27,198 nt of DNA from a virus (Duplodnaviria; Caudoviricetes), in the IMG/VR virus record IMGVR_UViG_3300007734_000536, positions 1 to 27,198 of that record, one strand, 5' to 3'. Of this stretch, positions 549 to 22,723 are shown piece by piece; within the stretch, counting starts at the first letter, position 1, and each line of letters begins with the position of its first letter. The notes under the pieces were generated by a model. The model made no database searches, was not told the origin of the DNA, and saw nothing but the letters and a program-made list of their open reading frames with translations. The translations under genes and the position numbers were made by a program.

Positions 549-2293
549 AGGCGGCTGAACAGCTACTCAAACGCGAGCGCGATCGCTGGAACTTTGAGCC
601 ACCACCATCCGTAATTGAGTGGGCGGAAAAGTACATTGAGTTGGATAGCAGGATCACGGCTCGCCCAGGTCTTTACTCAACCAAGTACACGCCTTACGTG
701 GCTGGCGTACTGGAAGCGCTGGCCGATCCGGGTGTGCATACGGTTAGCCTTTGTTGGGGTAGTCAGACAGGCAAGACGCTCACGCTGGCAATCTGGCTGG
801 CGTATCGGATTGCAAACGATCCAGCGCCTGCATTGCTCGTAATGCCTAACGCAGATCTAGCTAGGAGCTACAGCGAAACGCGACTGACTCCCATCTTTGA
901 GAAGTGCAAGCCAGTGCGGGCACTGTTCCCATACGACAGTGACGATTTTAAAATCCTAGAGATGCAGTTTACCAGCATGACTCTGAGCCTTGTGGGATCG
1001 AATAGCCCGGCCAATATCAGCTCAAGGCCGATCTGTATCGCGGTACTGGACGAGCTGGACAAGTTTGCTCCACCGACCGAACGCGAAGCGGCCGCCTACA
1101 ATCTGGCGCTGGAACGCACAAAGGCTTTCCCAAACCGAAAGCACGTACTAACTAGCACGCCCACGCTTTCAACTGGCGACATTTGGCAGAACTATCAGGC
1201 AGGAACGCAGGAAACTTTTCACGTCCCTTGCCACGCTTGCGGAGAATTTCAGGCAATGGAGTTCGGGCAAGTGCGATGGGCAGACAGTGCACGCAATTCT
1301 GACGGTAAGTGGGATCTGCAGAAAGTTGCAGACACGGCCGCATACTATTGCACAAAGTGCAACGAGCCGTGGACGGAAGGCCATAGACGCTCGGCCGTTG
1401 AGCAAGGCAAGTGGGTGGCGGCTAATCCGAACGCAGAGCGCGGGCGACGAAGCATGCGACTACCTAGCTGGTACTCGCCAACCGTCACGATCGCCGACTG
1501 CGCCAAACAGTTCCTAACTCAGAAGCACTATTTACACGGTTTACAAGGATTCGTGAACGGATGGAGTGCGATGCCGTGGGAAGATCAGTTTGATAGTGAT
1601 ACAACCGTCGACATTCCCGCCGGCGCCTTTGCTAAAAAGCAGAATTGGGAAACGGAACATCTTAAATTGGCGGCTATAGACAGACAGATCGACGAGTACT
1701 GGTTCGTGGTAAGGGCGTTTGCCAGGGATGGAACGAGCAGGCTAATTGACGAAGGACGGGCAAGGACGATCGAGGACGTGGCGCAACACTTGCACGCATT
1801 GGGCGTTCAACCAAAACACACGGCAATGGATAGCGGATACGAGACTCAAGATTCCTACCGAATCTGCGCCCGCTACAAGTGGACTGCATTAAAGGGCGAA
1901 GAACGACCAGCTTACTGGATTGAAACGCCACGCGGTCGAATGAAGTCAGTTCACTCAGCAGAGCAGCCCACTGACGCAGGCTGCATGCTTTTGCTTCTCA
2001 GTTCGCCAGCCTGTCAGGATCTGCTGGCATGGTTGCGGAGAGGGCAGGGGCCACGCTGGGAGATCGCCCATGACGTAAGCGCAGATTATCGGGAGCACAT
2101 GAGCAGCCACAAAAAGGTGCATAGGATTAACCGCAAGACAGGGCGCGATCACTACGAATGGATACGAATCAAAAGCAGACAGGATCACTTGTACGATTGC
2201 GAAACATACCTGGCTGGCTTTGCCGTATATGGAAAAGTCATTCGGCCTACTGCCTCGCTCGGCGAGGAATCGTTGACACCTGTGGCGTCGTGA
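545..2293 (+). CDS. terL: Terminase large subunit, lambda GpA family
   Basis: Walker A 'GSQTGKT', Walker B 'IAVLDELD', 'TSTPT' motif, CxxC pairs (CHAC, CTKC), C-terminal nuclease region 'DHLYDCETY'. Confidence 0.95.
   Translation: MKAAEQLLKRERDRWNFEPPPSVIEWAEKYIELDSRITARPGLYSTKYTPYVAGVLEALADPGVHTVSLCWGSQTGKTLTLAIWLAYRIANDPAPALLVMPNADLARSYSETRLTPIFEKCKPVRALFPYDSDDFKILEMQFTSMTLSLVGSNSPANISSRPICIAVLDELDKFAPPTEREAAAYNLALERTKAFPNRKHVLTSTPTLSTGDIWQNYQAGTQETFHVPCHACGEFQAMEFGQVRWADSARNSDGKWDLQKVADTAAYYCTKCNEPWTEGHRRSAVEQGKWVAANPNAERGRRSMRLPSWYSPTVTIADCAKQFLTQKHYLHGLQGFVNGWSAMPWEDQFDSDTTVDIPAGAFAKKQNWETEHLKLAAIDRQIDEYWFVVRAFARDGTSRLIDEGRARTIEDVAQHLHALGVQPKHTAMDSGYETQDSYRICARYKWTALKGEERPAYWIETPRGRMKSVHSAEQPTDAGCMLLLLSSPACQDLLAWLRRGQGPRWEIAHDVSADYREHMSSHKKVHRINRKTGRDHYEWIRIKSRQDHLYDCETYLAGFAVYGKVIRPTASLGEESLTPVAS
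2273..2279 (+). promoter_or_regulatory. TTGACA(C) late-gene motif, 20 nt before ATG 2293
   Basis: One of 8 TTGACA copies all 19-22 nt before an ATG (others at 4766, 5206, 12109, 14232, 16694, 19529, 22540). Confidence 0.65.
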
Positions 2294-2586
2294 TGGCTAT
2301 TTCCCGCAGACTCACGCGGGCCGTTGCTGTAAACTACCTGGCTCAAGCCTCAGGAGTTACCGCAAGCGCCCTGACCAACCTTGCCACTGACCGCAATGCG
2401 GCAATGACGGGCGCAGCATCAGGCCGTGCTCTTGTGGGATCTTCAGCGGGCGGACAATCCGCCAGCTTTCAGATCGACTTAAAACCTACCGAACGGGTTG
2501 AACTATTTCAGGCCGCTATCGATTACTTAAACGGCGTACAGGTCACACGCACCAGCGCCTCATTTTCTTATATTCTGGATAGCTGA
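2293..2586 (+). CDS. Head-tail joining protein (gpW-position), 97 aa
   Basis: Small ORF between terL and portal, TGATG coupling to terL; positional call. Confidence 0.6.
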   Translation: MAISRRLTRAVAVNYLAQASGVTASALTNLATDRNAAMTGAASGRALVGSSAGGQSASFQIDLKPTERVELFQAAIDYLNGVQVTRTSASFSYILDS

Positions 2587-2588
2587 TT

Positions 2589-4226
2589 ATGGCGCAGAAA
2601 CTTTCACTCGTGGCTCGGGTAGGTGCAGGGATCAAGGCGTTCGGCGCAGGATTCGGTGCAGGCATCAGCACGTTCCAGCCTTACGAGGGCGCAGGCTTTT
2701 CACGCAAACGGCCCGTCATCTACGGGGCACACGCCCGCGACTCACGCCTAGATCTAAATGAAGCGACACGGGTTGAGCTGCTTAAGCTTGCTCGGCACAT
2801 GTACCGCAACGTGGGCCTGATTAAAGGAGCGGTGGATTCGATCGCCACCTATTCGATTGGCCCAGGACTACGACCGCAGTATCGCGGAGCAGATCAAGAT
2901 TTCGGCAGGCTGTGTGAGGAATACTGGCGGGATATGGTAGTGCCATCACCTGAAGTTACAGGACGCATGACCTGGACAGATCTACTGCTATCGCTTTCAC
3001 GGTCGATCGATGTGGACGGTGACGTTTTTGTTGTAATGACTGAAAAGGGGAAGTTGCAAGTTGTCGAAGGCCACCGCGTTTGCGAAGGCGACGATTACGG
3101 AACAGCCGACGGCGTATTCCTTGGCAAGCTCGGAGAACCCACCGCATACCTCGTTCAAACAGGCGAGCTCTACAGAAAACTAACTTCAGATACCGTCATT
3201 CACTTAATGGAAATGGAACGGCCCGATCAGATCCGTGGAGGCTCTGCACTAGCTCGCGCACTCAATCACGTCCGCGATTTAAAAATGCTTGGCGAGTTTG
3301 AGAAGGACGCATTGAAATTGCAGGGAAGTATTGCGGCAGTAATTACAACTGACCAGGGCGACGAGCTGGCCGGGCAGGGTGGATTCTTTGGAACAGTGCA
3401 GGCGCAGGACAGCGGAGAAAGCACCATCGCCCGCGAGGAGATCACATCGTCAGCTACCATCCCACGCCTTTCACCTGGCGAAAAGATTGAGATGATTGGG
3501 CCGAATCGGCCGCACGCAGGCTTTGAGCCGTTCGCCAAGTTCCTCATTCGTGACGTGGCCATGGGCCTCGGATTGCCCGTTGAATTTGTTTACGACCCAG
3601 CCAGCGTAGGCGGGGCAGGGATGCGGTTTATTGTGGCAAAGGCACAGCGCAGATTTGAACAACGCCAACGCCTACTCATCGACAGATTCTGCAATCGGGC
3701 ATGGAGATTCTTTATTGGCGGAGCGATTGCCAACGGCGATCTACCGCCGGCCGAAGATTATGCAAAGGTTACGTGGCAGACGCCGAAGTCGCTAACCGTG
3801 GACGCAGGCCGCGAGGCACAGCAAGCCCGCGAGGACTACAAGGCGGGCCTATCCAGCCTGCAGGATTACTTTGGCGAACTTGGCCAAGATTGGGAAGAGC
3901 AGGTCAGACAGATTGCAAAAGAGCGTGAATTTGTCGCATCGATCGGAACGGTTGCACCGCAGACAGACGTGGCGGCTCCGGCAGAAGTAATCAAAGAGGC
4001 ACCAGCAATCGACGAGCCTACACCCGTCAATCCTGAGAAAGATCCAAACGCAGGGCCAGATGCGGAGCTGTCGGCTAAACCTAAAGAAACCGTTAAGGAA
4101 GTATTATCAGAATCTTTTACAATGAGGGACGATCCAGACTTTAACCTCTCCTCTAAAGAGCTGGATATGGTTGCCAAGGCCGTCGGGTTAAAAGATAAGA
4201 AACCAAGAACTACCAGAAAAAAGTAG
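2589..4226 (+). CDS. Portal protein, lambda family
   Basis: 'ARHMYRNVGLIKGAV', 'DGDVF', 'ERPDQIRG', 'AMGLGLPVE', 'GQDWEEQVRQIAKERE' motifs; acidic Pro-rich C-terminal extension. Confidence 0.92.
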   Translation: MAQKLSLVARVGAGIKAFGAGFGAGISTFQPYEGAGFSRKRPVIYGAHARDSRLDLNEATRVELLKLARHMYRNVGLIKGAVDSIATYSIGPGLRPQYRGADQDFGRLCEEYWRDMVVPSPEVTGRMTWTDLLLSLSRSIDVDGDVFVVMTEKGKLQVVEGHRVCEGDDYGTADGVFLGKLGEPTAYLVQTGELYRKLTSDTVIHLMEMERPDQIRGGSALARALNHVRDLKMLGEFEKDALKLQGSIAAVITTDQGDELAGQGGFFGTVQAQDSGESTIAREEITSSATIPRLSPGEKIEMIGPNRPHAGFEPFAKFLIRDVAMGLGLPVEFVYDPASVGGAGMRFIVAKAQRRFEQRQRLLIDRFCNRAWRFFIGGAIANGDLPPAEDYAKVTWQTPKSLTVDAGREAQQAREDYKAGLSSLQDYFGELGQDWEEQVRQIAKEREFVASIGTVAPQTDVAAPAEVIKEAPAIDEPTPVNPEKDPNAGPDAELSAKPKETVKEVLSESFTMRDDPDFNLSSKELDMVAKAVGLKDKKPRTTRKK

Positions 4227-4764: not shown

Positions 4765-4784
4765 TTTGACACCTGTTGGCCAGC

Positions 4785-5708
4785 ATGGCCAACAAACTCA
4801 AAAACGTCTCAATCCTCACCATCGGGGAAGCCCGTGGGCATAACCTTTTAATCGACGAAAAGTCGTTAGAGCAGGCGCTGGCTGTAGCGCAATCCATGAA
4901 GCGGATCAAAGTTACCATGGGCCACGGTGCACCCGTTACTGGAATCCTTGGATATATCGACGGATTCAGAATTGAAGGAGAGCGCCTTATGGGCGATCTG
5001 ACTCTGTTCAACACAAACGAGGCGCAGTTCGTTCAACACTTGGCGCAAGTCCTTCCAGAAGGCTTTGGAATGTCGCTCACTTTTAGCGGCGTACCCGAGG
5101 AGGTGGCTGGGAATCGCTTTGCACGAGTAACCGAGATCTACGATTGCTCAATCGTTTCCGAACCAGCCGCCAATCCCGCAGGTATGTTTTCTGCTTTCTC
5201 AGCAGTTGACATGAAAAAACTTCAAATGAACGAAGCACCTGTCGAAGTCAAAAAAGAGCTTAGTGAACCTGCCGTCGTGGCAGCTCCCGCACCCGAAGCT
5301 CCTGCCGTTGAAACTCCCGCAGTTGTCCAGGCACCGAAAGCCGAACTGGCCGAAATGCCTTCCGACAAGCCTGCGGAAAAAATGGCAGAACCTACCTTGA
5401 CCGACATCGCCGGCATGCTTGCAGAAGTGCTCGCTCTTATGAAAGCGGACGCAACTCAGGACGTGACCGAAGCTCCTGAAATGCCCGCTGAAGATATGGC
5501 TAAAAAAGAGATGAGCGCAAAGACTGAAGAAAAGGCCGACGAAAAGGCCGTGACCACTTTGGAAAAAGCCAAGGCCGACGCTGCTGGCGCAGTGGCGGTT
5601 CCCGCTGAATCGAGCCAACCGCTCGGCCGGGCAGAAATCCTCAATCAATTCAACGCGGAAAAGAATCCGACCCGTCGGTCGGAACTGCTCCGCAAACTCG
5701 GACTGTAA
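4785..5708 (+). CDS. Prohead protease-scaffold fusion
   Basis: N-terminal protease-like motifs (MGHG, GFGMS, DCSIVSEPAAN), then Ala/Glu/Pro/Lys-rich scaffold; directly upstream of capsid gene. Confidence 0.8.
   Translation: MANKLKNVSILTIGEARGHNLLIDEKSLEQALAVAQSMKRIKVTMGHGAPVTGILGYIDGFRIEGERLMGDLTLFNTNEAQFVQHLAQVLPEGFGMSLTFSGVPEEVAGNRFARVTEIYDCSIVSEPAANPAGMFSAFSAVDMKKLQMNEAPVEVKKELSEPAVVAAPAPEAPAVETPAVVQAPKAELAEMPSDKPAEKMAEPTLTDIAGMLAEVLALMKADATQDVTEAPEMPAEDMAKKEMSAKTEEKADEKAVTTLEKAKADAAGAVAVPAESSQPLGRAEILNQFNAEKNPTRRSELLRKLGL
5226..5708 (+). CDS. Nested in-frame scaffold protein (Nu3-like internal start), 160 aa
   Basis: In-frame ATG at the protease/scaffold boundary, preceded by TTGACA at 5206 at the same spacing as other late genes. 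Confidence 0.6.
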   Translation: MNEAPVEVKKELSEPAVVAAPAPEAPAVETPAVVQAPKAELAEMPSDKPAEKMAEPTLTDIAGMLAEVLALMKADATQDVTEAPEMPAEDMAKKEMSAKTEEKADEKAVTTLEKAKADAAGAVAVPAESSQPLGRAEILNQFNAEKNPTRRSELLRKLGL

Positions 5709-6673: not shown

Positions 6674-6686
6674 AAGAAATCCTCAC

Positions 6687-6986
6687 ATGTCCGAATTCAC
6701 AGAAGCACTCAAGGAAAGTCTGGCCGCACTTTATACTCAAACCGGCACGGCCGCCACTATCGGTTCCACTTCAGTCACTGGCATTCTTTCCACTGTTACC
6801 CGTAAAGAAAACGTCGATCTCGGCGGATATGATCTGGATCTAAACTCTACCTTCACCATCGACGTGGCAAACCTAGCCACTGCTCCAACTATCGGATCTA
6901 TTCTGCTGGCCAACTCCGTCAGCTATCGGGTGGCGTCGATTGATACTTCTATCGGCAGTTACGTGCTTGGGTTGCGAGAGGTTTAG
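6687..6986 (+). CDS. Head closure / head-tail adaptor (gpFII-like)
   Basis: 99-aa beta-rich protein after the capsid gene; 'PTIGSILLANSVSYRVASI' pattern. Confidence 0.6.
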   Translation: MSEFTEALKESLAALYTQTGTAATIGSTSVTGILSTVTRKENVDLGGYDLDLNSTFTIDVANLATAPTIGSILLANSVSYRVASIDTSIGSYVLGLREV

Positions 6987-6987: not shown

Positions 6988-8673
6988 ATGGCCACCCGAA
7001 ATCCTAAAATTTCCATCTACATGATCGCCGGGCACGAGGCGCAATTTATTGACCGTTGCCTTACCGCCTTCAAGCCATACTGCGACGAGCTGGTCGTGTG
7101 CATTGCCCAGGGCGCTTGGCCTGATGACGGAACACGGGCGATTGCGGAAAAGTCAGGGGCCAAGATAGTCGAATATAAAAACGCACCCGCAGGCGCAAGC
7201 TGGCCCCACGTAGATAACTTTGCCGCAGCTCGCAACACGGCGCTGGATGCCTGCACGGGCGACTATGCGGTATGGGTGGATTGTGATGACTTGCCACATA
7301 AAGACCTCAAAAACGCATTTAAAAGGGCCATAGAAGCATTTGAGCAGAATCCTAAGCTTGGCATTTATGCAGGGGTCTATGACGTTATAAACGCCAAATT
7401 AAGGCCAGTACGTGAGCGCATGGTAAGGCGTATAGACGGCGTATGGTCTGGAAAGTGGCACTATGCCGTACATGAGGCGCTATTGCCTAATGCTGGGCTG
7501 GAATCTGTAGGCGAGCAGGCCGTGTGGGTGGAGCATCACCCCGGCGGATATAAGCCAAACAGCGCCGATCGGAATCTCCGCATCCTGCAAGGCCAATTAA
7601 GCGAAGCGGGCAAGTATGCGTACTACTATCAACAGGAACTATTCTTAGGCAATCGCAGGACAGAATCGGAGCCGTGGTCACACGTCGCGGCCGTCTGGCC
7701 TGGGCAAGAGGCCACGCTGGCATACGAGGCCGCATGCAATCAGGCCACAGCTACGCAGGATCGCAACGTCAGGATTGGCCTATACCAAAAGGCACATCAG
7801 ATGAATCCTGGGCGAAGGGAAGCGATTTACTATTTAGCCAGGGAAGAGGCCAGCGTGGGTGCGTGGTTGCAAGCGTATCATTTGCTTAAGTCGGCAATGG
7901 TTCAGCCCGATCCGGGCGTGAAGATATGGAACGCCCAGCGCACCGTGTATGACTTTGAGTGCATCGATTTATATCTGGCGGCCTGCAAAGCCGTGGGCGA
8001 TACGACGGAAGCGGAGAAGATCGAGAAGATGTGGCGGGCACAGAAGCCCGTAAAGATTACTGTATGCCACGCAACGCGAGGACGGCCGCAGGAAGCAATT
8101 AACGCTCGTATTCTTTGGATGAAAAAGGCGGCAGACCCAGCCTCGATCGAGTGGATCTACTCAGTCGATGATGACGATCCAAAAGCCAGCATGCTTAAAA
8201 ATTGGGGCATCATTAGCGGTAAAGGCGGATGCGTTGCAGCTTGGAACAGAGCTGCAGAAGTGGCCCGTGGCGAAATTATCATTCAAGGCTCCGACGATTG
8301 GGATCCTCCTTTGCATTGGGATACGATCATCACTCAACGCCTTGGCGATCTAAGCAAGCCTGCCGTGCTTGCCGTATCCGACGGTCATCGCAAAGACGAT
8401 CTTCTGTGCATGGCAATTTTAACAAAGGCTCGGCTGAAACAGCAGGGCACAATGTTTGCGCCTGAGTATGACGCATGCTCAGGCATTTTCAGCGATAACG
8501 AGTACAGCTTACGCGGTGCAAAAGACGGCGTAATCATCGACGCCAAAGATATCGTCTTTACCCACAACAACCCAATCTTCACAGGCGCAGCGCAGGATGC
8601 GGAATTTAAGCGCCATAACGCCAAAGAAAACTACGAGCTGGGCGAGAAGATATTTAAAGAGCGTAACCCGTGA
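6988..8673 (+). CDS. Bifunctional glycosyltransferase: GT2 - TPR-like helices - second GT-A domain
   Basis: N-terminal GT2 motifs (ISIYMIA, FAAARNTAL, WVDCDD, VHE), helical TPR-like middle (LYQKAHQMNPGRREAIYYLA), second GT-A domain (HATRGRP, VAAWNRAA, QGSDDW, FSDNE). Confidence 0.85.
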   Translation: MATRNPKISIYMIAGHEAQFIDRCLTAFKPYCDELVVCIAQGAWPDDGTRAIAEKSGAKIVEYKNAPAGASWPHVDNFAAARNTALDACTGDYAVWVDCDDLPHKDLKNAFKRAIEAFEQNPKLGIYAGVYDVINAKLRPVRERMVRRIDGVWSGKWHYAVHEALLPNAGLESVGEQAVWVEHHPGGYKPNSADRNLRILQGQLSEAGKYAYYYQQELFLGNRRTESEPWSHVAAVWPGQEATLAYEAACNQATATQDRNVRIGLYQKAHQMNPGRREAIYYLAREEASVGAWLQAYHLLKSAMVQPDPGVKIWNAQRTVYDFECIDLYLAACKAVGDTTEAEKIEKMWRAQKPVKITVCHATRGRPQEAINARILWMKKAADPASIEWIYSVDDDDPKASMLKNWGIISGKGGCVAAWNRAAEVARGEIIIQGSDDWDPPLHWDTIITQRLGDLSKPAVLAVSDGHRKDDLLCMAILTKARLKQQGTMFAPEYDACSGIFSDNEYSLRGAKDGVIIDAKDIVFTHNNPIFTGAAQDAEFKRHNAKENYELGEKIFKERNP

Positions 8674-9434
8674 TTCATACCCACAACGCACTGCGGTTAG
8701 GCGACAACCTGATACAACTAAACTTCCTGCGTCGGCTATGCCTGCAGAATCCTGACCTTGAAATCACGCACTATTATAATCCCGGTCTGTGCAAGTTTGA
8801 GGAAATTGACGCCTTGCGTAGCGACATATCTTTACGGTTACGCATTCGCCCGATCAGCGAGGCGCCTGCCGATAGCATCGATTCGTGGCGGAACACTGGC
8901 GGATATTGGGAACGTCACCCCGACAAATTAAACTTTGCGCAATTTCACCTGTGCTGGTTTGAAGAACTGGCCAGCAGGATGTGCGTTAAAAATCCGATCC
9001 GCAAAGTTGAAGATCTGTTGTTTGATTATTGGGCGTTGGATTCTTTTATACCGATGGCGCCAGAGTGCGACATAGTGGTTATCAATTCGCCAGGACTATC
9101 TGGCCAATTTACAAATTTCAACCCTGACGATTTTCGTAACCTAGTATCTAAACTGGTTAGCAAGGGCCATCGCGTAATCAGCACCGTGGATACTGGATTA
9201 TGCCCAGCGTTTGATAATAAAAATGTAACTTGGATAGGAGCGACGGCTGCCAAAGCAAAAGCCGTGGTCGGAACATCTACCGGGCCGAGCTGGCCGTGCC
9301 TTAACGTCCACAACAAAGATGCTTTCCACCTGCTCTGTGCGGATACCGAAACAGTCATATTTACCCAACGTGGGCAGATGGCTAGGAGCGCATTTCACGC
9401 TTTGTATATTTTGGAAGAGGAAGGGTTGCTGTGA
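8670..9434 (+). CDS. Glycosyltransferase, GT9 (heptosyltransferase)-like GT-B fold
   Basis: N-terminal 'RLGDNLIQLNFLRRL' and C-terminal 'AKAVVGTSTGPSW' match GT9-type LGD and D/S-S/T-GP motifs; GTGA-coupled. Confidence 0.6.
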   Translation: MIHTHNALRLGDNLIQLNFLRRLCLQNPDLEITHYYNPGLCKFEEIDALRSDISLRLRIRPISEAPADSIDSWRNTGGYWERHPDKLNFAQFHLCWFEELASRMCVKNPIRKVEDLLFDYWALDSFIPMAPECDIVVINSPGLSGQFTNFNPDDFRNLVSKLVSKGHRVISTVDTGLCPAFDNKNVTWIGATAAKAKAVVGTSTGPSWPCLNVHNKDAFHLLCADTETVIFTQRGQMARSAFHALYILEEEGLL

Positions 9435-9949
9435 AGCAAGAGCTGACGCAGGCAATGGATTTACTGGCGGCCGATCCAGCCGTCAGGTTTATAGGGTATG
9501 GAGTAAAGATAGGCGGGCGGGCAGCGGGCACGCTTAATCACGTTTCAGATTCGCAACTCATCGAAACACCCGTCGCTGAAAATCTAATGGTGGGACTAGC
9601 CACCGGCCTTAGTTTGGCGGGGCTAAAACCCGTTGTCTTTATTGAACGAATGGATTTTATTTTGAATGCGCTGGATGCCATCGTGAATCACCTGGGCGCA
9701 GCGCAACACATTAGCTGCAATCAATTCAAGCCAGCCGCCATCTTGCGGGTAGTCATTGGCAATAAATACAAACCCCTATACACCGGCCCGACTCACACGC
9801 AGGATTTTACTCAAGCACTCAGGCAAATAATCGACTTTCCAATCGTCGAACTAAAAAAGGGAAGCGTAGTCAACGAGTATCAAAGCGCACTGGATAGATT
9901 AAGCGTCGGAACTTCCACCATACTCGTCGAGCGAAAGGATGAGTGGTGA
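9431..9949 (+). CDS. Truncated ThDP-enzyme E1 beta / transketolase pyrimidine-binding domain protein
   Basis: 'IETPVAENLMVGLATGLSLAGLKPVV', 'DFILNALDAIVN', 'GPTHTQ'; 172 aa, lacks the usual C-terminal domain. Confidence 0.85.
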   Translation: MKQELTQAMDLLAADPAVRFIGYGVKIGGRAAGTLNHVSDSQLIETPVAENLMVGLATGLSLAGLKPVVFIERMDFILNALDAIVNHLGAAQHISCNQFKPAAILRVVIGNKYKPLYTGPTHTQDFTQALRQIIDFPIVELKKGSVVNEYQSALDRLSVGTSTILVERKDEW

Positions 9950-11037: not shown

Positions 11038-11648
11038 ACAAACAGGATCTGATTGATTTTGAATTAAGAATTAAAGCTCTATTTGAGCAGGGCAAACTTC
11101 CTTATTTGATTCACCTATGCGGCGGCAATGAAGATCAACTAATCGAGATATTTAAAGACATTAAGCTGGGCGATTGGATTTTCTCAAGCCATCGATCCCA
11201 CTATCACTACCTGCTGGCTGGCGGAAATCCTGATTTGCTTGAAGAGATGATTAGAGAAGGTCGCTCCATGTTTGTATTCGACCGCAAACTAAATTTCTAC
11301 ACTTCCAGCGTTTTGGCTGGCACTTGCGGGATAGCGGCCGGAGTGGCGCATACGCTTAAAGAGCAGGGAAGCACGGCAAAGGTGTGGTGCTTCTTGGGCG
11401 ATGGAGCTGAGGACGAAGGCCACTTTTATGAAGCCGTAAACTACGTGGCCGGGGCAGATCTACCCTGCACATTTATTATTGAGGACAACGATCGATCCGT
11501 GGACACGCCAAAGGCCGCCAGAGGAAAGGCCACGATGACTTGGCCTGATTGCGTAAAGCGATATCACTACACGCCAACGTTTCCGCATGGCGGTGCGGGT
11601 TGTAAAACCATGGTCACATTTGATCCGACAATCCGCCCGATATGGTGA
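11034..11648 (+). CDS. Truncated ThDP-enzyme E1 alpha-like subunit
   Basis: 'HLCGGNE', 'SSHRSHYHYL', ThDP-binding 'GDGAEDEG...IIEDN'; 204 aa; ATGA-coupled. Confidence 0.88.
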   Translation: MNKQDLIDFELRIKALFEQGKLPYLIHLCGGNEDQLIEIFKDIKLGDWIFSSHRSHYHYLLAGGNPDLLEEMIREGRSMFVFDRKLNFYTSSVLAGTCGIAAGVAHTLKEQGSTAKVWCFLGDGAEDEGHFYEAVNYVAGADLPCTFIIEDNDRSVDTPKAARGKATMTWPDCVKRYHYTPTFPHGGAGCKTMVTFDPTIRPIW

Positions 11649-11665
11649 CAAGAAGCGTCTAAAAT

Positions 11666-12112
11666 ATGCCAGCCGTCACCATGCTCGATCGTTTAATTGA
11701 AGCTGCTTTTCAAGAGCTTCTATCCGTAACCGTCACCGGGCCGACCTATCACTTGTCGCACGATAAGACCGAGAACATGCCTCCATCTATCGTAATAAAA
11801 GCCACGCTAGGAACGGAAGAGCCAGTGCGAGGATCGGGAGTGTTTGCCGTGCCAGTTGAAATTGTTGTGGACGATTCTTACGACGATACAACGGTGGACG
11901 CACACACTCAAAAATGCTCCAAGATTCTGCAAGCTTTCTACGATTCAAGCACTTTAACCGCTAGACTAAACGCCACTACGGCCATCGGATCTGCTCGTTG
12001 TTACAACGCCAAGGTGGATTCTGTTGAGCCAGAGGCGGACGATGAAGAGCGTACAATGCGTCGCACCTTTAAGCTGGCAGTCATTGCATATCCGAATTCT
12101 ATCGCGAGTTGA
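11666..12112 (+). CDS. Tail terminator / tail completion protein
   Basis: Acidic 148-aa protein directly upstream of the tail tube gene; positional call. Confidence 0.55.
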   Translation: MPAVTMLDRLIEAAFQELLSVTVTGPTYHLSHDKTENMPPSIVIKATLGTEEPVRGSGVFAVPVEIVVDDSYDDTTVDAHTQKCSKILQAFYDSSTLTARLNATTAIGSARCYNAKVDSVEPEADDEERTMRRTFKLAVIAYPNSIAS

Positions 12113-12130
12113 CACAAAATTTAAGGCAAT

Positions 12131-12478
12131 ATGGCAGCCACAACAATCGGAACAACGGGCCTACAGTTTGGCATTACTGCTGAAGCCGGTGGGTTAGTTC
12201 AATCTTTCACAGAAACTCGCAACGTAGAGCGTGCAGAAATTAGGAACCAAAGCGGCGAGGTAGTTGGTTGCGCTGTCTATAATCCCACCGATACCTTTGC
12301 TTTCTCCACCACCATCACGGGCGCTTATGCCACAACGGCAGGCGCAGTTCTCACAACCTTGGCAAACGCTACCAGCACGGGCGGTAAGATCGTAGTCGAT
12401 AGCGTTACGGTTAATCGCACTAGCGAAGGATTCGTCACGGTGGACGTATCAGCGACTCGATTCCCCAACATGAGCTAA
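12131..12478 (+). CDS. Major tail tube protein (minimal, 115 aa)
   Basis: Thr/Gly-rich beta protein, TTGACA motif upstream, hairpin downstream, lies upstream of the chaperone and tape measure genes. Confidence 0.65.
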   Translation: MAATTIGTTGLQFGITAEAGGLVQSFTETRNVERAEIRNQSGEVVGCAVYNPTDTFAFSTTITGAYATTAGAVLTTLANATSTGGKIVVDSVTVNRTSEGFVTVDVSATRFPNMS

Positions 12479-12495: not shown

Positions 12496-12508
12496 ATGAG
12501 ATCCTAAA

Positions 12509-13466: not shown

Positions 13467-14308
13467 GCGCAAGCTTAACAGTCGACGCCAGTAAACTACA
13501 GAAAGCCATGAAGGCTTTTATCGGTAATACCAAGGCCGAGGCAGCCAAGGAAATGCGGATACAGGCACGCATGCTTTGCGTTAGCCTAGCTAATTCGACG
13601 CAACCTTTTGGCTTTGGAAATGACGTAAAGAAAGTCGGCGAAAAGGCAGTTACTAAGGATATTGATCGCGTCTACAAATCGGCAGGTACTGCCTCTAAAG
13701 AGATAGCTAAATTATCGCTGCCAAAGGGAAAGACTAAGACACAAAACGCAGAACAAATGGCCAAGGCATTGGCGGCGCTTGTGCTGGGCAAAACTGGCGG
13801 AAGTAAAAGAAAGCGTGCTGAATCCGCACAACAACTTCTAAACAGAATACGACAACAACCGTACGTGGGTACGCAAGTCGGTCAGTTTGACGGTGGAAAA
13901 AGTCACGAATCAGCTCGGTATGGCAAATCAAAAAGAGTGCCTAAAAATCAGTTTGTGCGTCAAATCGTCACTAAAGATAGTCCGTTGTCGCGATATTTTA
14001 AAGATAAGCGCGAAAACGTAGGTATCGCAAAATCAGGCTGGGCTGTTTGCGCCGGTATATTAGGAGGCTTTCGCGGTATTCCTAAATGGGTATACAGGCA
14101 CACGGGTGGCGGCCGCGTAAATGATAAGAGCCAAACGGCGTTGGGCACATTCTCCAAGCCTTACGTTCAAATGACTAATACGATCCCTTGGATTAACAAC
14201 GTAATTAGTACTGGAACCATCCAGAAGTCCATTGACATACAGGTGTTAAAAATGATCAAGCGGCTGAGTATTATCGCTAATTACGAGAGCAAAAAGGCTG
14301 GGCTATAA
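13463..14308 (+). CDS. Basic virion morphogenesis / neck protein (HK97 gp10-like)
   Basis: Lys/Arg-rich; N-terminal 'SLTVDASKLQKAMKAF', C-terminal 'VQMTNTIPWI'. Confidence 0.5.
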   Translation: MSASLTVDASKLQKAMKAFIGNTKAEAAKEMRIQARMLCVSLANSTQPFGFGNDVKKVGEKAVTKDIDRVYKSAGTASKEIAKLSLPKGKTKTQNAEQMAKALAALVLGKTGGSKRKRAESAQQLLNRIRQQPYVGTQVGQFDGGKSHESARYGKSKRVPKNQFVRQIVTKDSPLSRYFKDKRENVGIAKSGWAVCAGILGGFRGIPKWVYRHTGGGRVNDKSQTALGTFSKPYVQMTNTIPWINNVISTGTIQKSIDIQVLKMIKRLSIIANYESKKAGL

Positions 14309-16692: not shown

Positions 16693-16712
16693 ATTGACAC
16701 AAGAAAAGCATT

Positions 16713-18350
16713 ATGGCGCAATCACTTGATCTTTATATTGACGTTACTAAAGGGGAGTTGCTGACGGGCGGATCGGCCATTAACGGAGCACTGCCTACTT
16801 TAACTAGGAACGATTCTTATAACCTCCGCGTGCGCTTGCGGGAACGTGATTCTGGCGGTTTTTTAAGAGACTTAAACACTAGTGGAATTTCCGTAAAACT
16901 TGGTATCGGTGGCGTTGAGGATAGTCCTACCGATGGACAATTTAAACTTACCCTGGGCGCAGTTACATCCACCGCCATCTCATTCAACGCAACGACTACG
17001 CAGGTATACAATGCGATCAGCGCAATCGCGGGAGCAGGCGTTACTGTCACCACGTTCGGATCGATCACACAAGGCGTTTATTTAATTACCTCCGCCACGG
17101 CCAACACGGCGCTATCGTTTGGCGGGGATGCTTTCACGCTTTTCCCGACAAGCTCGGTTCTAATCAATACCCGCAGGAATCCAGCCACGGGAATTCCTGC
17201 GCAACAAGTAATCAAATTAGTCCGCAATCCTGCCGTATATGCTGATACTTTTACCGCATCGCCTACTGCTGGAATCGTATCACTTACAAAACTACAGGAC
17301 GGATCTGCGTCTCAGAACGAAATCTATAACCTTAGTGCAGGAGCCGACGCAGAAGGCGGATCGGTTGTCCTTAACTTTGGTACGAACAGCACGACTGCGA
17401 TCGCGCTCGGAGCCACGGCCGCCAGCTTTAGGGAAGCTTTAAGCGCCGTCACGGGGATCGGTGCGGGTAATATCAGCGTCGATTCAGGGAATGGCAATTA
17501 CACCATCTCATTCGTTCGGGATCTTGGCCTTCAGAATGTAACTACCGCACTTACTTTGGATACCAGTGGCGTAATATACGGCACATTCTTACAGAGCGCG
17601 GTAACCCTAAACACGGCTGGCATTGAGGAGCTGTTTGCGGAAGCCAGTGCAGATGAAATTACCCCTAAGCTGGAAGTCGAATTGACGCAATCTGGTACGC
17701 CTAAAACCATTTTACAAACGGACGTTACGATTAGAAAAGATTTAATTACCACAGGCAGTGCGGTGCCAGCCGCTCAAGCGTCCTATCTAACGGCGGCCGA
17801 AACGTATGCTGCCTTTGTCCGCAACTCCACTACAGGCGTTAATTCCAGCGCACGCAGCCTGGCAGATTCATCGGCTGTTACAGCCGTGGCGTTTGGAGCT
17901 AGGACGCTCAATAATAGCTCAGGAACGGCCGTTGTGAGCTATGGTGCCGGGCTTTCATTTTCAAACACGCCGCTTGGCTTTTATGGAGTAGCGGTTACGG
18001 CCCAGCCTGCAAATATTAACGCGGTAAGCGGTTTAATTAACGTGGGATTACTGGCCAATAGCGCAACCTACGGAGTTTTACCGCAATCGCCTAGAACGCT
18101 AACTACAACCGCATCTATTTATTTTGGTTCAGTTGCAGCAAACGATACCAACTCAGTTAGTGTTGTTGTTACTGGATGCCAGCTAAATGATATTGTTTTG
18201 ATTGGATTACCTCCAAGCAATCCAAACGGCCTTACGTTCTTGGGCCATGTTACAACTGCAAACGGGCTAGAGATTGATTGCGTAAATGCAACCAACGGAA
18301 GTCAGACACCGGCCACAGCCACCTACCGAATCACCGTCATTGGTTATTAA
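16713..18350 (+). CDS. Tail fibre / baseplate-associated structural protein
   Basis: Thr/Ser/Ala/Gly-rich; two copies of a 'G.F.L.(L/F)G..T.AI...AT......A(I/L)SA..G' module; beta-rich C-terminal module. Confidence 0.7.
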   Translation: MAQSLDLYIDVTKGELLTGGSAINGALPTLTRNDSYNLRVRLRERDSGGFLRDLNTSGISVKLGIGGVEDSPTDGQFKLTLGAVTSTAISFNATTTQVYNAISAIAGAGVTVTTFGSITQGVYLITSATANTALSFGGDAFTLFPTSSVLINTRRNPATGIPAQQVIKLVRNPAVYADTFTASPTAGIVSLTKLQDGSASQNEIYNLSAGADAEGGSVVLNFGTNSTTAIALGATAASFREALSAVTGIGAGNISVDSGNGNYTISFVRDLGLQNVTTALTLDTSGVIYGTFLQSAVTLNTAGIEELFAEASADEITPKLEVELTQSGTPKTILQTDVTIRKDLITTGSAVPAAQASYLTAAETYAAFVRNSTTGVNSSARSLADSSAVTAVAFGARTLNNSSGTAVVSYGAGLSFSNTPLGFYGVAVTAQPANINAVSGLINVGLLANSATYGVLPQSPRTLTTTASIYFGSVAANDTNSVSVVVTGCQLNDIVLIGLPPSNPNGLTFLGHVTTANGLEIDCVNATNGSQTPATATYRITVIGY

Positions 18351-18379
18351 AACAGGGCGAATGCCCTAACGAGATCCTT

Positions 18380-19024
18380 ATGGCCTTTCTTTTTGCAAAA
18401 TCGTTCCCATTTTGCGTCGAGGAAAGTGATGCCCAAACTGGCGACGGAACAGATTACCCATTTGAAATGACGTTAGAAGATGCGATGGAGTTATACTGGA
18501 AATTTCTATCACTAAAAATAACAGACAATCTTGTTTATTCCTTCGTAAATAATTCTACTGAAGGGAGCTGTGTGGCGACTCACTCATTTTCAAACACCAT
18601 AGAAACATTAAGCTATTGGCCTAGCAAAATGAGTGAAATGATTTGTCCACCGCCTCCATATTTTTACGGAACAACTAGCGGATACAATGGAACTATGACA
18701 AGCAGCAATGCCGTAAGCCCATACAATACAGCCGGATTCTATTCTCTGGTATATGCTCAAAGTATGATTAGAAAAAAAATAAATAATACATACAAATTCT
18801 TTCCTAGTTTTCTTTTAGAAATATCAACCGACTTAGAGTACAGTTCAGATTATAGCACTAAAGATAATGGAGGCTTGGCCTCTCAAATTGTTACTCTTAA
18901 AACTAGTAATAAGGAATATAAAACAAACTTATATGCCAGCGGGGTTAATCCTGGCGATCATTCTGAAATCTCTTTATCTGGTTCAGTAGTTATTGAGAAA
19001 GCAAGTGATCGCACCGCTGAATGA
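18380..19024 (+). CDS. Hypothetical tail-region protein (AT-rich, variable)
   Basis: ATG 18380 (MAFLFAKSFPFC) avoids overlap with the upstream gene; Ser/Thr/Tyr-rich. Confidence 0.6.
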   Translation: MAFLFAKSFPFCVEESDAQTGDGTDYPFEMTLEDAMELYWKFLSLKITDNLVYSFVNNSTEGSCVATHSFSNTIETLSYWPSKMSEMICPPPPYFYGTTSGYNGTMTSSNAVSPYNTAGFYSLVYAQSMIRKKINNTYKFFPSFLLEISTDLEYSSDYSTKDNGGLASQIVTLKTSNKEYKTNLYASGVNPGDHSEISLSGSVVIEKASDRTAE

Positions 19025-19532
19025 TATTATTAAGTCTGGGGGATATTTTTGCGGGGGATTTGTAAGAGACTATCTGATCCGTGGAGAATCTTTTAACGAC
19101 ATTGATTTTTGCTTTGCTGGCAATTTGCCTAATCCTTATGCATCTTGGCCTTTGATTAGGACACAGATTGGAAGGGAAACAGCAGAGGCGCATATTGATG
19201 GCATCAAATATCATTGCGTAAATCTCGAGGCCATAGACTTAACTTGTAATCTGTTTTGCTTTGATGGGGTTAAAGTATATCCAAGGCCGTGTTTTCAATA
19301 CAGAGATAAGCCAGTAGATTATTTTAAGGCTTGGGAAATGCTTTTAAAGAAGAAGTTTGTTATGCAAGTCCCAGCTATTAAAAATGTAAAGTTACGGGCC
19401 AAGTTGACTAAGAGGGGCTGGATTGATTGCGGGATTGATCTGGTTGTAGGCACTCTTGCAGCACCGCCACCCGTCGGCCCTTGGTCTGACTTCACCTTAG
19501 CTAAGGAAAGGTTTAATGTCTTAGCCCTTTGA
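18993..19532 (+). CDS. Minimal nucleotidyltransferase, CCA-adding/poly(A) polymerase head-domain-like
   Basis: 'CGGFVRDYL...NDIDF' (GGxVRD, DxD) and 'DLTCN' (DFTIN-like). The start may be GTG 19005. Confidence 0.7.
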   Translation: MRKQVIAPLNDIIKSGGYFCGGFVRDYLIRGESFNDIDFCFAGNLPNPYASWPLIRTQIGRETAEAHIDGIKYHCVNLEAIDLTCNLFCFDGVKVYPRPCFQYRDKPVDYFKAWEMLLKKKFVMQVPAIKNVKLRAKLTKRGWIDCGIDLVVGTLAAPPPVGPWSDFTLAKERFNVLAL

Positions 19533-19550
19533 CACACGCCATCCAGAAGT

Positions 19551-19886
19551 ATGGCCGCTGGCGTATATAATCTAACCGTAGAACAGGGCGTGGATCTTGC
19601 GCTCGAGGTATCGGTCAAGGACTCCACTGGCGCAACGTATTCACTAGTCGGCGCAACTGCTGCCGCTCAGATCCGCGATACCTACAACGGCAACCTGCTG
19701 GCTGAATTTGCAGCCGTCACGGCTACTGGCACGACCGGCAGCCTTACCCTGGCGTTGAATGCAGCCACGGCATCAGCTCTACCCATCAGTGGCGGAAAGT
19801 GGGATCTACTTCTTACCACAAGCGCTGCCACTAAAATCCGCCTTTTACAAGGCTCCGTCACCATCGCGGGAGAGGTGACTGAATAA
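19551..19886 (+). CDS. Tail fibre anchoring / BppU-N-like beta-sandwich protein
   Basis: 'YNLTVEQG...SLVGATAAAQIRD...KWDLLL...RLLQGSVTI..EVT' pattern common in phage tail regions. Confidence 0.65.
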   Translation: MAAGVYNLTVEQGVDLALEVSVKDSTGATYSLVGATAAAQIRDTYNGNLLAEFAAVTATGTTGSLTLALNAATASALPISGGKWDLLLTTSAATKIRLLQGSVTIAGEVTE

Positions 19887-20020
19887 TGCCTATCACCGCT
19901 ACAGTCTGCGGGCCTGCCAGCATTACGGTTGCCGTGGGTACGCCCATCGTGACGGGTGGAGCTGGCGTGGCTGGCGTGACTACAGGCACGGCCGTGGCGC
20001 TGGCGATAGCCTTGGGATGA
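19886..20020 (+). CDS. 44-aa tail fibre adaptor-like peptide (not in ORF track)
   Basis: TAATG-coupled; MPITATVCGPASITVAVGTPIVTGGAGVAGVTTGTAVALAIALG*; ends in the AIALG* motif of phage fibre proteins. Confidence 0.7.
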   Translation: MPITATVCGPASITVAVGTPIVTGGAGVAGVTTGTAVALAIALG

Positions 20021-20036
20021 CAAGGAGCACAAGAAA

Positions 20037-21248
20037 ATGAAACAGATCTGGCCTAATTACTCTTATTCGCCCACCACAAACGTCCTTACGCTTACCGGGT
20101 TAAACATCGATCGCGACCAACTTCTGCTTGTGACTGCCGCCGATCGCGGGAGGATTATGTATAACTTTGCGGATAGCTCGGTTACCGCTTCCGCCTTTAC
20201 GTCGGGCGCAAATACCGCACTTACCCTGGTTGCGACTACCGCTGGGCTAACGACCACGGCTGCGCTTGTTATCTATTACGACGATCAGCTTCAGAGCACC
20301 TCAGTTTCCATCTCTAACCTCCCATCCACCCAGACGATTGCTGGAACGGTAACTGTATCAAATGCAGTTGAGTTAGCACAAGCCCTACTCGCTCAAAGTG
20401 CATCTTACGCAAGTTTAGATGTAAATATTGGTGGAGTTAGTTCGGTCACGCTACCCATCTCTGGCACAGTCACCATTGGCTCTGCTCTCCCCGCTGGCAC
20501 AAACCGCATCGGCGTAGTGACGATTGGAGCAGGGACAGTCACCATCGGAGCAGGGACGGCACAGATTGGAAGCGTGACGGCATCTATCTCAAACAGCCTC
20601 ACGATTGCGTCGCTTCCTGCGATTAGTGGAACGGTTACGGTTGGAGGATTTTCTGGAAATGCCGTCACTACGGGCTACACATTTAATGGAAATGCAGTTT
20701 CCTCCGTCCCTGTTATCGTAATGGAAAATTATAATGGGAGTATTGGAACGGTGGATGTTTCTGGTGGTTTCATTACTGTTACCACAGGCACAAACCAAAT
20801 CGGCGTGGTGACGATTGGCGGTGGCACAGTCACACTCGGGGCAAGCACATCTCAAATTGGAAGCGTCACGGCCAACATTAGCGGAACTGTCCCCATTAGC
20901 ATTACATCTGTAACCATTGGCTCTTGCGTTACGCATGGAGTAACGATTGCAAATACGGTAGTCACATTCTATCCAGCACAAGGCACCACGGTATCTAATA
21001 CAAATTTCACTAGCATTACTTCTTCTACTTCTTTAGTAGCCGCTGATTCTGGCAGGGAAGTGCTGACGGTGTTTAACGAGGGAGCTGGAAATCTTCACAT
21101 TTCGCCCGGTGCTACTTGCACCACGATTAGCTACCAAGTTCGACTATCTAGTGGCGATTATTGGGAATGTCCCGCTGGTCAACTTTCCCTAGCTCATACC
21201 GCAGTATTCGCCACGGCTGGCACGGCTAGAGTAACGCAAATTAGCTAG
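20037..21248 (+). CDS. Tail fibre protein with (I/V)GxVT repeats
   Basis: AAGGAG Shine-Dalgarno; Thr/Ser/Gly/Val-rich; repeated ISGTVT / IGSVT / IGVVT units. Confidence 0.75.
   Translation: MKQIWPNYSYSPTTNVLTLTGLNIDRDQLLLVTAADRGRIMYNFADSSVTASAFTSGANTALTLVATTAGLTTTAALVIYYDDQLQSTSVSISNLPSTQTIAGTVTVSNAVELAQALLAQSASYASLDVNIGGVSSVTLPISGTVTIGSALPAGTNRIGVVTIGAGTVTIGAGTAQIGSVTASISNSLTIASLPAISGTVTVGGFSGNAVTTGYTFNGNAVSSVPVIVMENYNGSIGTVDVSGGFITVTTGTNQIGVVTIGGGTVTLGASTSQIGSVTANISGTVPISITSVTIGSCVTHGVTIANTVVTFYPAQGTTVSNTNFTSITSSTSLVAADSGREVLTVFNEGAGNLHISPGATCTTISYQVRLSSGDYWECPAGQLSLAHTAVFATAGTARVTQIS
20496..20885 (+). repeat. Imperfect ~90-nt internal duplication in the fibre gene (copies start at 20496 and 20787)
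   Basis: GTNRIGVVTIGAGTVTIGAGTAQIGSVTASIS versus GTNQIGVVTIGGGTVTLGASTSQIGSVTANIS. Confidence 0.8.
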
Positions 21249-21998: not shown

Positions 21999-21999
21999 A

Positions 22000-22275: not shown

Positions 22276-22532
22276 GCACCGACCAAGTCGCTGAACTTTC
22301 GGAGCGGTTAAGCCTAGTGCGGGAATCAATCGCCCGAATCGAAACCCGGCAGTCGGTAATTCTGGATTTATTAGAACGCTCGCAAGCCAGCTTGGGCGAG
22401 TATCACGGCCGCCTGACCAACATGGAACGCGACGCGCACACGATTAAAACAAAGCTGTGGCTAGTGGCGTTGGTATCCGGGGCAGTGGTAAGCACAGCGT
22501 GGGAGTTAATCAAACGCCGATTTAGCTTTTGA
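22272..22532 (+). CDS. Coiled-coil protein with C-terminal TM helix (XhlA-like, lysis-associated)
   Basis: Heptad pattern followed by 'LWLVALVSGAVVSTAW' and a basic tail. Confidence 0.65.
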   Translation: MSTDQVAELSERLSLVRESIARIETRQSVILDLLERSQASLGEYHGRLTNMERDAHTIKTKLWLVALVSGAVVSTAWELIKRRFSF

Positions 22533-22558
22533 CCTACCTTTGACACCCCGCCAAGGGC

Positions 22559-22723
22559 ATGGAAATTATCAATAACATACTAACGAACTGGCAGTCTTAC
22601 CTTGGCGCCTTGTCGGCCGTGCTAGTGGCTGTGATTGCGGTATCGGCCGTTATCCCTGGCGACGAACCTGAGCGTACCCTGCAAAAGATAGTGGACGTCA
22701 TCGCTCGATTCTCAAAAAAGTAA
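22559..22723 (+). CDS. Putative holin, 54 aa (not in ORF track)
   Basis: MEIINNILTNWQSYLGALSAVLVAVIAVSAVIPGDEPERTLQKIVDVIARFSKK*; one TM helix, basic C-terminus, TTGACA motif upstream. Confidence 0.6.
   Translation: MEIINNILTNWQSYLGALSAVLVAVIAVSAVIPGDEPERTLQKIVDVIARFSKK

What the first reader, a model, noticed from the sequence alone, without database searches (positions are those of the whole stretch)
2273..22561. TTGACA sits a fixed 19-22 nt before late-gene start codons: a non-canonical expression signal
Seen: all 8 + strand TTGACA hexamers I found by manual scan are followed by an ATG 19-22 nt from the first T. The pairs are 2273>2293, 4766>4785, 5206>5226, 12109>12131, 14232>14252, 16694>16713, 19529>19551 and 22540>22559; six read TTGACAC. 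One-mismatch copies behave the same way (GTGACA 11645>11666, ATGACA 20017>20037). Six of the eight do not overlap an upstream stop codon, so this is not a TGA artefact. Established: TTGACA is the sigma70 -35 consensus, but at this spacing the -10 would fall inside the coding sequence. The ordinary promoters in this window place -35 about 35 nt from the ATG. Inference: either a compact, -10-less late promoter giving leaderless mRNAs via a phage factor that remodels RNA polymerase, or an RNA-level translation-initiation element replacing Shine-Dalgarno.
Basis: partly seen in the sequence, partly recalled or inferred. Interest (0 to 1): 0.85.

Follow-up and report, generated by a model that had tools for sequence, protein, structure and literature searches.

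The report
Compact TTGACA phage late promoter
This uncultured phage and its relatives put the exact word TTGACA 19-22 bases before the start codons of late genes; it is likely an undescribed compact promoter whose messages begin at or beside the start codon, likely switched on by a small phage helix-turn-helix protein that travels with the signal.

Summary
Real. All 8 TTGACA copies lie on the late strand, 19-22 nt before an ATG (chance about 1e-9 after look-elsewhere). The scan found this motif before on other DNA (six reports); my literature searches found no description. New here: (1) inside coding frames the box keeps its codons, and before the tape-measure gene it persists in relatives with no start codon at that spacing, which favours a DNA promoter over a ribosome signal. 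(2) Lake metatranscriptome contigs from several studies begin 5-24 nt into two box genes (weak hint; some read through). (3) A 157-aa helix-turn-helix gene just before the late genes of complete relatives, absent from this truncated window, travels with the box: 11 of 12 host prophages carrying it have boxes, against 1 of 35 terminase regions without it; host DNA lacks boxes. There is no -10 and spacers average 63-71% GC. Best model, untested: transcription starts about 19 nt after the first T, and the phage protein moves host sigma region 4 onto a hexamer at -19 to -14, as lambda Q does in its loading complex. Promoter about 0.75; this mechanism about 0.45.

The parts
2273..2295 (+). Box 1 (TTGACA in the last codons of the terminase large subunit gene) and ATG 2293 of the 97-aa gene before the portal; offset 20
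   Evidence: box kept in 26 of 26 distinct upstream sequences of relatives; its codons invariant in 16 of 16 contexts
4766..4787 (+). Box 2 and ATG 4785 of the likely protease/scaffold gene (role inferred from position; no family hit); offset 19
   Evidence: 19 of 25 distinct upstream sequences
5206..5228 (+). Box 3 inside gene 4785-5708 and in-frame internal ATG 5226 (likely separate scaffold start, upstream of the capsid gene); offset 20
   Evidence: GTT GAC invariant in 28 of 28 contexts; RNA contigs begin at 5231-5250 in 4 runs
12109..12133 (+). Box 4 (overlaps the stop of 11666-12112) and ATG 12131 of the likely tail tube gene (inferred); offset 22
   Evidence: 25 of 25; RNA contigs begin at about 12141-12149 in 4 runs
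14232..14308 (+). Box 5 inside gene 13463-14308; ATG 14252 opens an 18-codon in-frame stretch whose stop overlaps the tape-measure start (14308); likely the promoter of the tape-measure block
   Evidence: xTT GAC A in 38 of 38 contexts; 10 of 11 distant loci checked have no start codon at offsets 17-27
16694..16715 (+). Box 6 and ATG 16713 of a 545-aa tail-region gene; offset 19
   Evidence: 31 of 32
19529..19553 (+). Box 7 (overlaps the stop of 18993-19532) and ATG 19551 (phrog_1084 / tail-fibre assembly-like); offset 22
   Evidence: 21 of 29
22540..22561 (+). Box 8 and ATG 22559 of a small hydrophobic gene before the endolysin (holin-like, inferred); offset 19
   Evidence: 24 of 25
11645..11668 (+). 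Possible weak box GTGACA (contains the upstream stop) before ATG 11666
   Evidence: other alleles carry TTGACG at offset 19
20017..20039 (+). ATGACA before ATG 20037: doubtful, equally read as stop codon plus SD-like AAGGAG

Best explanation
TTGACA 19-22 nt before late-gene start codons is likely a compact phage late promoter, with transcription predicted to start about 19 nt after the first T and give messages with no leader or a few bases. Shown: the placement, its conservation at the DNA level, the lack of a -10 and of SD sites, its confinement to phage late regions, and its co-occurrence with one phage helix-turn-helix (HTH) family. Odds: promoter of some kind about 0.75; needs the HTH family about 0.6; read by displaced host sigma region 4 about 0.45.
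For: Placement: 8 of 8; 76 of 89 distinct late-strand sites in 80 relatives. DNA-level constraint: box codons invariant in 38 of 38, 28 of 28 and 16 of 16 contexts, while only 1 of 19, 12 of 67 and 4 of 147 conserved two-fold positions are invariant in those genes. Kept without a start codon 79-81 nt before the tape-measure gene, with C18-A19 intact (10 of 11 loci). One-sided spacing: offsets 18:2, 19:29, 20:16, 21:7, 22:6 in host prophages; 17:1, 18:0, 19:44 in the family; G at offset 17 in 36 of 56 sites against 25%. RNA contigs with dead-end left ends at 5231, 5234, 5236, 5236, 5241, 5250 (runs X18, X23, X6, X14) and about 12141-12149. Factor: in 80 viral loci picked only for a distant HTH homolog the top hexamers at offsets 19-22 are GTTGAC 73 vs 2, TTGACA 52 vs 4, TTGACT 39 vs 0; 11 of 12 host prophages with a strong HTH hit have 2 or more boxes vs 1 of 35 terminase regions with no hit, and that one has a divergent HTH-like gene at the matching place; host DNA 5 of 101, flat. 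Reader: the box stays TTGAC(A/T) while the phage recognition helix varies widely; host sigma region 4.2 is canonical; sigma region 4 on a -35-like site immediately upstream of region 2 is seen in the Q-lambda loading complex (bioRxiv 10.1101/2022.03.25.485794, passages).
Against: No start site is mapped. RNA data are assembled contigs of related strains; contigs of 29x and 39x read through box 3 (X23, X8), a 4.5x contig spans box 4, and run X4 looks like DNA. In the lambda precedent region 2 holds a -10-like element and the complex is elongating; here TAnnnT is at most 2% at any offset and spacers are 63-71% GC, some wholly GC, so how the DNA melts is unexplained. One prophage with a 45-bit HTH has 0 boxes, as do four regions with 22-28-bit hits. 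The 2x2 mixes two selection schemes, lineages are not independent, and many terminase regions may be remnants. A primase-helicase (52 of 80) and a small nuclease (58 of 80) also travel with the HTH. The converse test was underpowered: box-positive records outside the family were fragments. The HTH gene is not in this window.
Confidence: 0.45

Rival explanations
1. Same compact promoter, but the phage HTH protein binds TTGACA itself (a sigma-4-derived activator or mini-sigma) and recruits and opens host RNA polymerase, like P1 Lpa on its -22 box.
For: All promoter and co-occurrence evidence. The fold is an HTH (residues 69-114) with weak likeness to sigma region 4 (5 of 78 members hit Sigma70_r4; hhalign probability 16%, E 0.0016). 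P1 Lpa binds a sequence centred at -22 (PMC3152322, passages).
Against: The putative recognition helix differs strongly among box-positive prophages while the box does not change, and it lacks the residues of host region 4.2. The box is a single asymmetric hexamer identical to the host -35 consensus.
Confidence: 0.25
2. The box is a sigma-region-4 pause or factor-loading site met during elongation (Q- or AlpA-like), which positions ribosomes or leads to cut 5' ends at the start codon, not a start site.
For: The geometry matches an elongation-stage precedent. The top structural match of the HTH model is AlpA, an antiterminator (Z 5.5, rmsd 8.0, 85 aligned, not significant). The gene sits where Q-like genes sit. 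Read-through contigs exist.
Against: No -10-like pause element and no upstream promoter beside the boxes. Sigma region 4 pausing is reported only for early elongation (PMC3326312, passage). The C18-A19 and G17 bias looks like a start site.
Confidence: 0.12
3. UUGACA is an RNA-level translation-initiation element replacing Shine-Dalgarno.
For: Fixed distance to start codons; 0 of 8 box genes have an SD-like word; some RNA contigs include the box.
Against: Kept with no start codon near it in 10 of 11 distant loci; spacing is one-sided; most dead-end RNA contigs exclude the box; the phage uses AGGAG before the capsid gene; co-occurs with a DNA-binding fold.
Confidence: 0.08
4. A compact promoter read by an unmodified host factor (an alternative sigma of Verrucomicrobiota), with the HTH gene a mere fellow traveller.
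For: Hosts carry further sigma-70 paralogs; HTH and box could both mark one phage lineage.
Against: 400 kb of host DNA shows no box peak (5 of 101); 34 of 35 other terminase regions in the same phylum lack boxes; HTH and box co-occur across phages that share little else (terminase 18 of 80, capsid 1 of 80).
Confidence: 0.07
5. An ordinary sigma-70 -35 element with the start about 35 nt downstream, the true start codons lying further in.
For: Exact -35 consensus; box 8 has AATTAT at 18 nt; some RNA contig ends (5241, 5250, 12146-12149) fall near such a start.
Against: 1 of 8 boxes has a -10 by scan, TAnnnT at most 2% in 254 sites; the ATGs are conserved gene starts; contigs start at 5231-5236 and 12141, before the canonical start.
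Confidence: 0.03

Closest known systems
Phage P1 late promoters with Lpa (and host SspA)
   Same: Dispersed late promoters read by host RNA polymerase with a phage protein and a box closer to the start than -35 (centred at -22; PMC3152322 and PMC8198154, passages).
   Different: Here the box is the host -35 consensus itself at about -19 to -14, asymmetric. P1 late promoters keep a -10 hexamer (recalled), these do not. No family link of the HTH to Lpa was seen.
[quoted passage not shown]
   Same: A phage late regulator moves sigma region 4 from the flap tip to a -35-like site immediately upstream of region 2 (bioRxiv 10.1101/2022.03.25.485794 and PMC6606751, passages): the spacing inferred here.
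   Different: That is one paused elongation complex with a -10-like element and a Q binding site; here eight sites, no -10-like element, and start codons at the inferred start.
RinA/ArpU late activators of Gram-positive phages
   Same: Small activator gene just before the morphogenesis genes, with limited likeness to sigma region 4 (PMC3152322, passages).
   Different: RinA drives one promoter before terS; here terS has no box and boxes are dispersed. 0 of 78 HTH members hit RinA or ArpU models.
Leaderless late promoters of Thermus phages Lalka27a and YS40
   Same: Many late promoters, mostly leaderless messages, an inferred phage factor (bioRxiv 10.64898/2026.04.20.719267, passages).
   Different: Those use a variant -10 (TAGGGT) six bases before the start; here there is no -10.
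Start Associated Sequences of Cluster K mycobacteriophages
   Same: Phage-specific asymmetric word at a fixed place before start codons, function untested (PMC3203893, passages).
   Different: SAS is 13 bp with an SD-like part and proposed to act in translation; this box is 6 bp, unlike SD, and survives loss of the start codon.

Membership tests
Canonical sigma-70 promoter | TTGACA-like -35 hexamer | tested here: met
   8 exact copies
Canonical sigma-70 promoter | TAnnnT -10 hexamer 16-18 nt downstream | tested here: not met
   1 of 8 by scan, inside the coding sequence; at most 2% at any offset in 254 sites
Canonical sigma-70 promoter | Start about 35 nt after the first T | tested here: inconclusive
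   RNA contigs begin both before and near that point; contigs cannot fix a start
P1 Lpa-type late promoter | Several dispersed late promoters with a phage activator | tested here: inconclusive
   Dispersal shown; activator only by co-occurrence
P1 Lpa-type late promoter | Box centred at -22 plus a -10 hexamer (the -10 is recalled) | tested here: not met
   Inferred centre about -16; no -10
RinA/ArpU system | Activator gene just upstream of the morphogenesis cluster | tested here: met
   HTH gene is third before terS in the complete relative; terS lies in the same loci
RinA/ArpU system | Match to RinA or ArpU family models | tested here: not met
   0 of 78 members at E 0.01 in NCBIfam; remote kinship not excluded
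RinA/ArpU system | Single late promoter before terS | tested here: not met
   No box before terS in 36 distinct upstream sequences; eight boxes further on
Q-type loading site | -35-like hexamer next to a -10-like pause element | tested here: not met
   Hexamer present, -10-like element absent
Q-type loading site | Q- or AlpA-like protein | tested here: inconclusive
   AlpA Z 5.5, rmsd 8.0 on a pLDDT 67 model; no Foldseek match at E 0.001
Phage-encoded sigma factor | Sigma-70 region 4 domain in the phage genome | tested here: not met
   0 of 1 complete relative; no sigma family among 15 early proteins scanned
Thermus Lalka/YS40 late promoter | Variant -10 (TAGGGT) six bases before the start | tested here: not met
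   No conserved word at offsets 7-16
Thermus Lalka/YS40 late promoter | Leaderless transcripts | tested here: inconclusive
   Weak hint from RNA contigs
Start Associated Sequence / SD-like element | Always tied to a start codon, partial 16S pairing | tested here: not met
   Kept without a start codon; 0 of 8 SD-like words

The most novel reading that the evidence does not exclude
Phages of Verrucomicrobiota encode an unnamed HTH protein family that rebuilds the host sigma-70 holoenzyme so that it initiates from a lone -35 consensus moved 16 bases towards the start, with no -10 and on GC-rich DNA, giving leaderless late messages: a new class of bacterial promoter and of sigma appropriation.
Probability: 0.4. 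Interest if true: 0.92.

Novelty: new variant of a known kind. Interest (0 to 1): 0.76.

Why it matters
The -35/-10 spacing is set by the build of the sigma-70 holoenzyme and -10 recognition is thought to nucleate melting. A natural promoter class with only a displaced -35 word would show another way to initiate, and the candidate factor makes it testable with purified parts or a reporter. Practically, the box marks late-gene starts (also internal ones such as a scaffold start) and, with the HTH gene, flags likely Verrucomicrobiota phages among uncultured contigs.

Tried and rejected
Stop-codon artefact: six of eight boxes do not overlap a stop. Host-wide signal: a pattern count in four genomes was uninformative because the reversed control is a different word; the direct test on 400 kb was flat. 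Sigma-54-type reading: the spacing would put the start inside the gene (reasoning from the recalled -24/-12 layout). Inverted half-site or hairpin in the spacer: seen by eye in some sites, no column-level support. Co-variation of box and recognition helix: looked for, not found; the TTGACT variant occurs beside TTGACA in the same genomes. Complex prediction of one HTH protein with its host's sigma regions 2-4 and beta flap: no verdict, score 0.00, no evidence either way. Fold searches: only generic HTH matches; PDB sequence search nothing below E 0.07; Atlas neighbours unnamed. A viral scan with alignment A3 could not run. Converse test on records picked by a box-like pattern: HTH in 3 of 48 (two from this family, one at E 9e-4); of 18 records at least 90% complete 17 lacked it, 16 of them with no other box and one 408-kb record with 2 among 21 TTGACA; underpowered. 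The att-like match in the UBA3063 genome is not in a called tRNA, so it is poor host evidence. Stretches without RNA cover upstream of 5160 are no evidence, as strains diverge there. Run X20 did not cover box 3.
Full report
OBSERVATION. The window is the late region, integrase and early switch of a temperate tailed phage (terminase, portal, capsid, tape measure, endolysin, integrase); relatives are 33-35 kb, so about 7 kb of early genes are missing. TTGACA occurs 8 times, all on the late strand, each 19-22 nt before an ATG. The chance is 0.052 per site, 6e-11 for eight and about 1e-9 with a free window; no unrelated hexamer among 2,549 tested comes close. Six ATGs head genes, one (5226) is internal and in frame, one (14252) opens the last 18 codons of gene 13463-14308, whose stop overlaps the tape-measure start. 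Most other late genes abut their neighbours or carry an SD word, and terS has a different upstream region.

CONSERVATION. In 80 loci found with the capsid, 76 of 89 distinct late-strand TTGACA have an ATG at 17-23, against 3 of 13 on the other strand; in 75 integrase loci 80 of 104 at 19-22 against 0 of 6. Per gene start the box is kept in 26 of 26, 19 of 25, 25 of 25, 31 of 32, 21 of 29 and 24 of 25 distinct upstream sequences, and in none of 14 other starts examined. These relatives are close kin, so the counts are not independent events.

DNA OR RNA SIGNAL. Where the box lies in a coding frame its codons are invariant: 38 of 38 contexts at 14232, 28 of 28 at 5206 (one TTGACT), 16 of 16 at 2273, while only 1 of 19, 12 of 67 and 4 of 147 conserved two-fold positions are invariant in those genes. 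Twelve of the 38 contexts come from proteins 28-40% identical; of 11 such loci inspected, 10 have no ATG, GTG or TTG at offsets 17-27, keep C18-A19, and lie 79-81 nt before the tape-measure start (9 of the 10; one contig is cut short). They are a few lineages, but a translation signal should not survive loss of its start codon, whereas a promoter should. Spacing is one-sided: 17:1, 18:0, 19:44, 20:64, 21:11, 22:30, 23-27:15 in the family and 18:2, 19:29, 20:16, 21:7, 22:6 in unrelated host prophages. G is enriched at offset 17 (58% weighted; 36 of 56 against 25%), partly tied to the ATG. TAnnnT is at most 2% at any offset and spacers are 63-71% GC. I infer a start at about offset 19, placing the hexamer at -19 to -14.

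RNA. Eight of 24 listed runs were laid, all as assembled contigs of related strains. Around box 3, contigs with no loose end and no overlapping upstream contig begin at 5236 (X6, X14), 5231 and 5241 (X18), 5234 and 5250 (X23; two loose letters); other dead ends are 5154 and 5657; four pieces and 87 were not shown. Around box 4 contigs begin at 12141 (X6), 12146 (X8, adapter at the end) and about 12146-12149 (X4, X5, after loose letters). Against: contigs of 39x (X8) and 29x (X23) and three of 2-5x run into or through box 3, a 4.5x contig spans box 4, and X4 has flat, DNA-like cover. This is a weak hint of 5' ends at or just before 5231 and 12141, with read-through from upstream.

CANDIDATE FACTOR. 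The complete relative (capsid 99% identical; G353, 100% complete) has no sigma region 4 hit but encodes, third before terS, a 157-aa protein (L090:997-1470, minus strand) with an HTH at residues 69-114 and a long basic helix. Its profile finds 176 clusters at 50% identity; no Pfam, NCBIfam or PHROG family takes more than 9 of 78 members. Three tests. (a) 80 viral loci picked only for a distant homolog: downstream on the same strand, 54 ATG hits at offsets 19-23 among 127 distinct TTGACA; de novo, the top words at offsets 19-22 are GTTGAC, TTGACA and TTGACT with controls near zero. They share little else with this phage (terminase 18 of 80, capsid 1 of 80), though a primase-helicase (52) and a small nuclease (58) co-travel. 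(b) 24 of 301 genomes from the phylum of the UBA3063 genome (Verrucomicrobiota) have a hit; 20 regions were fetched. The 13 with E at most 1e-10 are 12 elements, 11 with 2-8 boxes in 20 kb and one with none; the 7 weak hits have 0-1. (c) Of 40 terminase-picked regions chosen for long contigs, 35 have no HTH hit and 34 of these have at most one box; the exception has 3 boxes and a divergent HTH-like gene at the matching position (7 bits, judged by eye); the other five (45, 28, 28, 28 and 22 bits) have none. Fisher p is 8e-9, or 1e-7 with three near-identical elements merged; it ignores relatedness, mixes selection schemes, and some terminase regions may be remnants. Host DNA from three of these genomes shows no peak (5 of 101). 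The host of this phage is likely a verrucomicrobium: terminase 79% identical in a small contig of the UBA3063 genome, though similar hits lie in two otherwise labelled assemblies, and the box-HTH pair sits in integrated prophages of that phylum.

MECHANISM. Who reads the box is open. I favour host sigma region 4: the word is its exact consensus, the host region 4.2 is canonical, and the box is constant while the phage recognition helix varies among box-positive prophages. A precedent exists: in the Q-lambda loading complex region 4 leaves the flap tip and binds a -35-like site immediately upstream of region 2 (bioRxiv 10.1101/2022.03.25.485794, passages; PMC6606751, passages); with region 2 at -12 to -7 (established) that is about -19 to -14. 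The gap in this model is melting without a -10 on GC-rich DNA. The main rival is direct binding by the phage HTH (weak sigma-4 likeness).

KNOWN SYSTEMS AND NOVELTY. It works like P1 Lpa promoters, RinA-type activation and the leaderless Thermus late promoters, and fails a defining feature of each (membership table). Papers were seen as passages only; no supplements were read, and the promoter logos of the Lalka preprint are in a supplement I could not see. Six searches for a description found none: searches returned 0 papers, only the Lalka preprint, unrelated titles; the library lacks most subscription journals. The scan reported the motif six times on other DNA; look-ups for the HTH link returned nothing. 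Gene roles marked 'likely' rest on position, not on a hit.

VERDICT. A real, strongly conserved, phage-specific signal; likely a new promoter architecture within the known kind of activator-dependent phage late promoters, now with a named candidate factor and a first weak RNA hint. Interest 0.76.

Noticed in passing
window 6676-6689, 12498-12511, 18371-18382: A second signal: a GC hairpin followed by GARATCCT and an ATG 1-3 nt later, right after the capsid, likely tail tube and 545-aa tail genes; 3 copies on +, 0 on -; conserved before 6687 and 12509 in relatives. Several capsid RNA contigs end near the first hairpin. May be a step-down or restart signal.
   Followed up: partly
window 14252-14308: In this lineage box 5 would give a leaderless 18-codon peptide whose stop overlaps the tape-measure ATG, a possible device to load ribosomes by coupling; distant relatives lack the ATG.
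   Followed up: partly
window 26691-26718: att-like 3' half of a tRNA: 26 nt with 2 mismatches to a tRNA-Ser(TGA) in G003, 28 nt near-match in G002 outside any called tRNA.
   Followed up: partly
L090 about 4900-5240, minus strand: A shorter paralog of the HTH gene; 5 of 37 loci over 10 kb carry two such motifs. Could modulate the main factor.
   Followed up: no
L300, L306, L309, L471-L474, L478, L488: In many distant phages a box lies in or at the 3' end of the HTH gene itself, before the next gene.
   Followed up: no
window 6988-11648: Glycosyltransferase, radical SAM and two phrog_34187 genes sit between head and tail genes, mostly overlapping, with no box; likely virion or surface modification.
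   Followed up: no
window 25130-25230: Palindromic TACGCA...TGCGTA and related words before the small regulator gene 25228; likely the operators of the early switch.
   Followed up: no
genomes of the G002 phylum sample: 155 of 301 genomes carry a phrog_2-type terminase hit, far more than have the HTH; many may be lone or domesticated genes.
   Followed up: no
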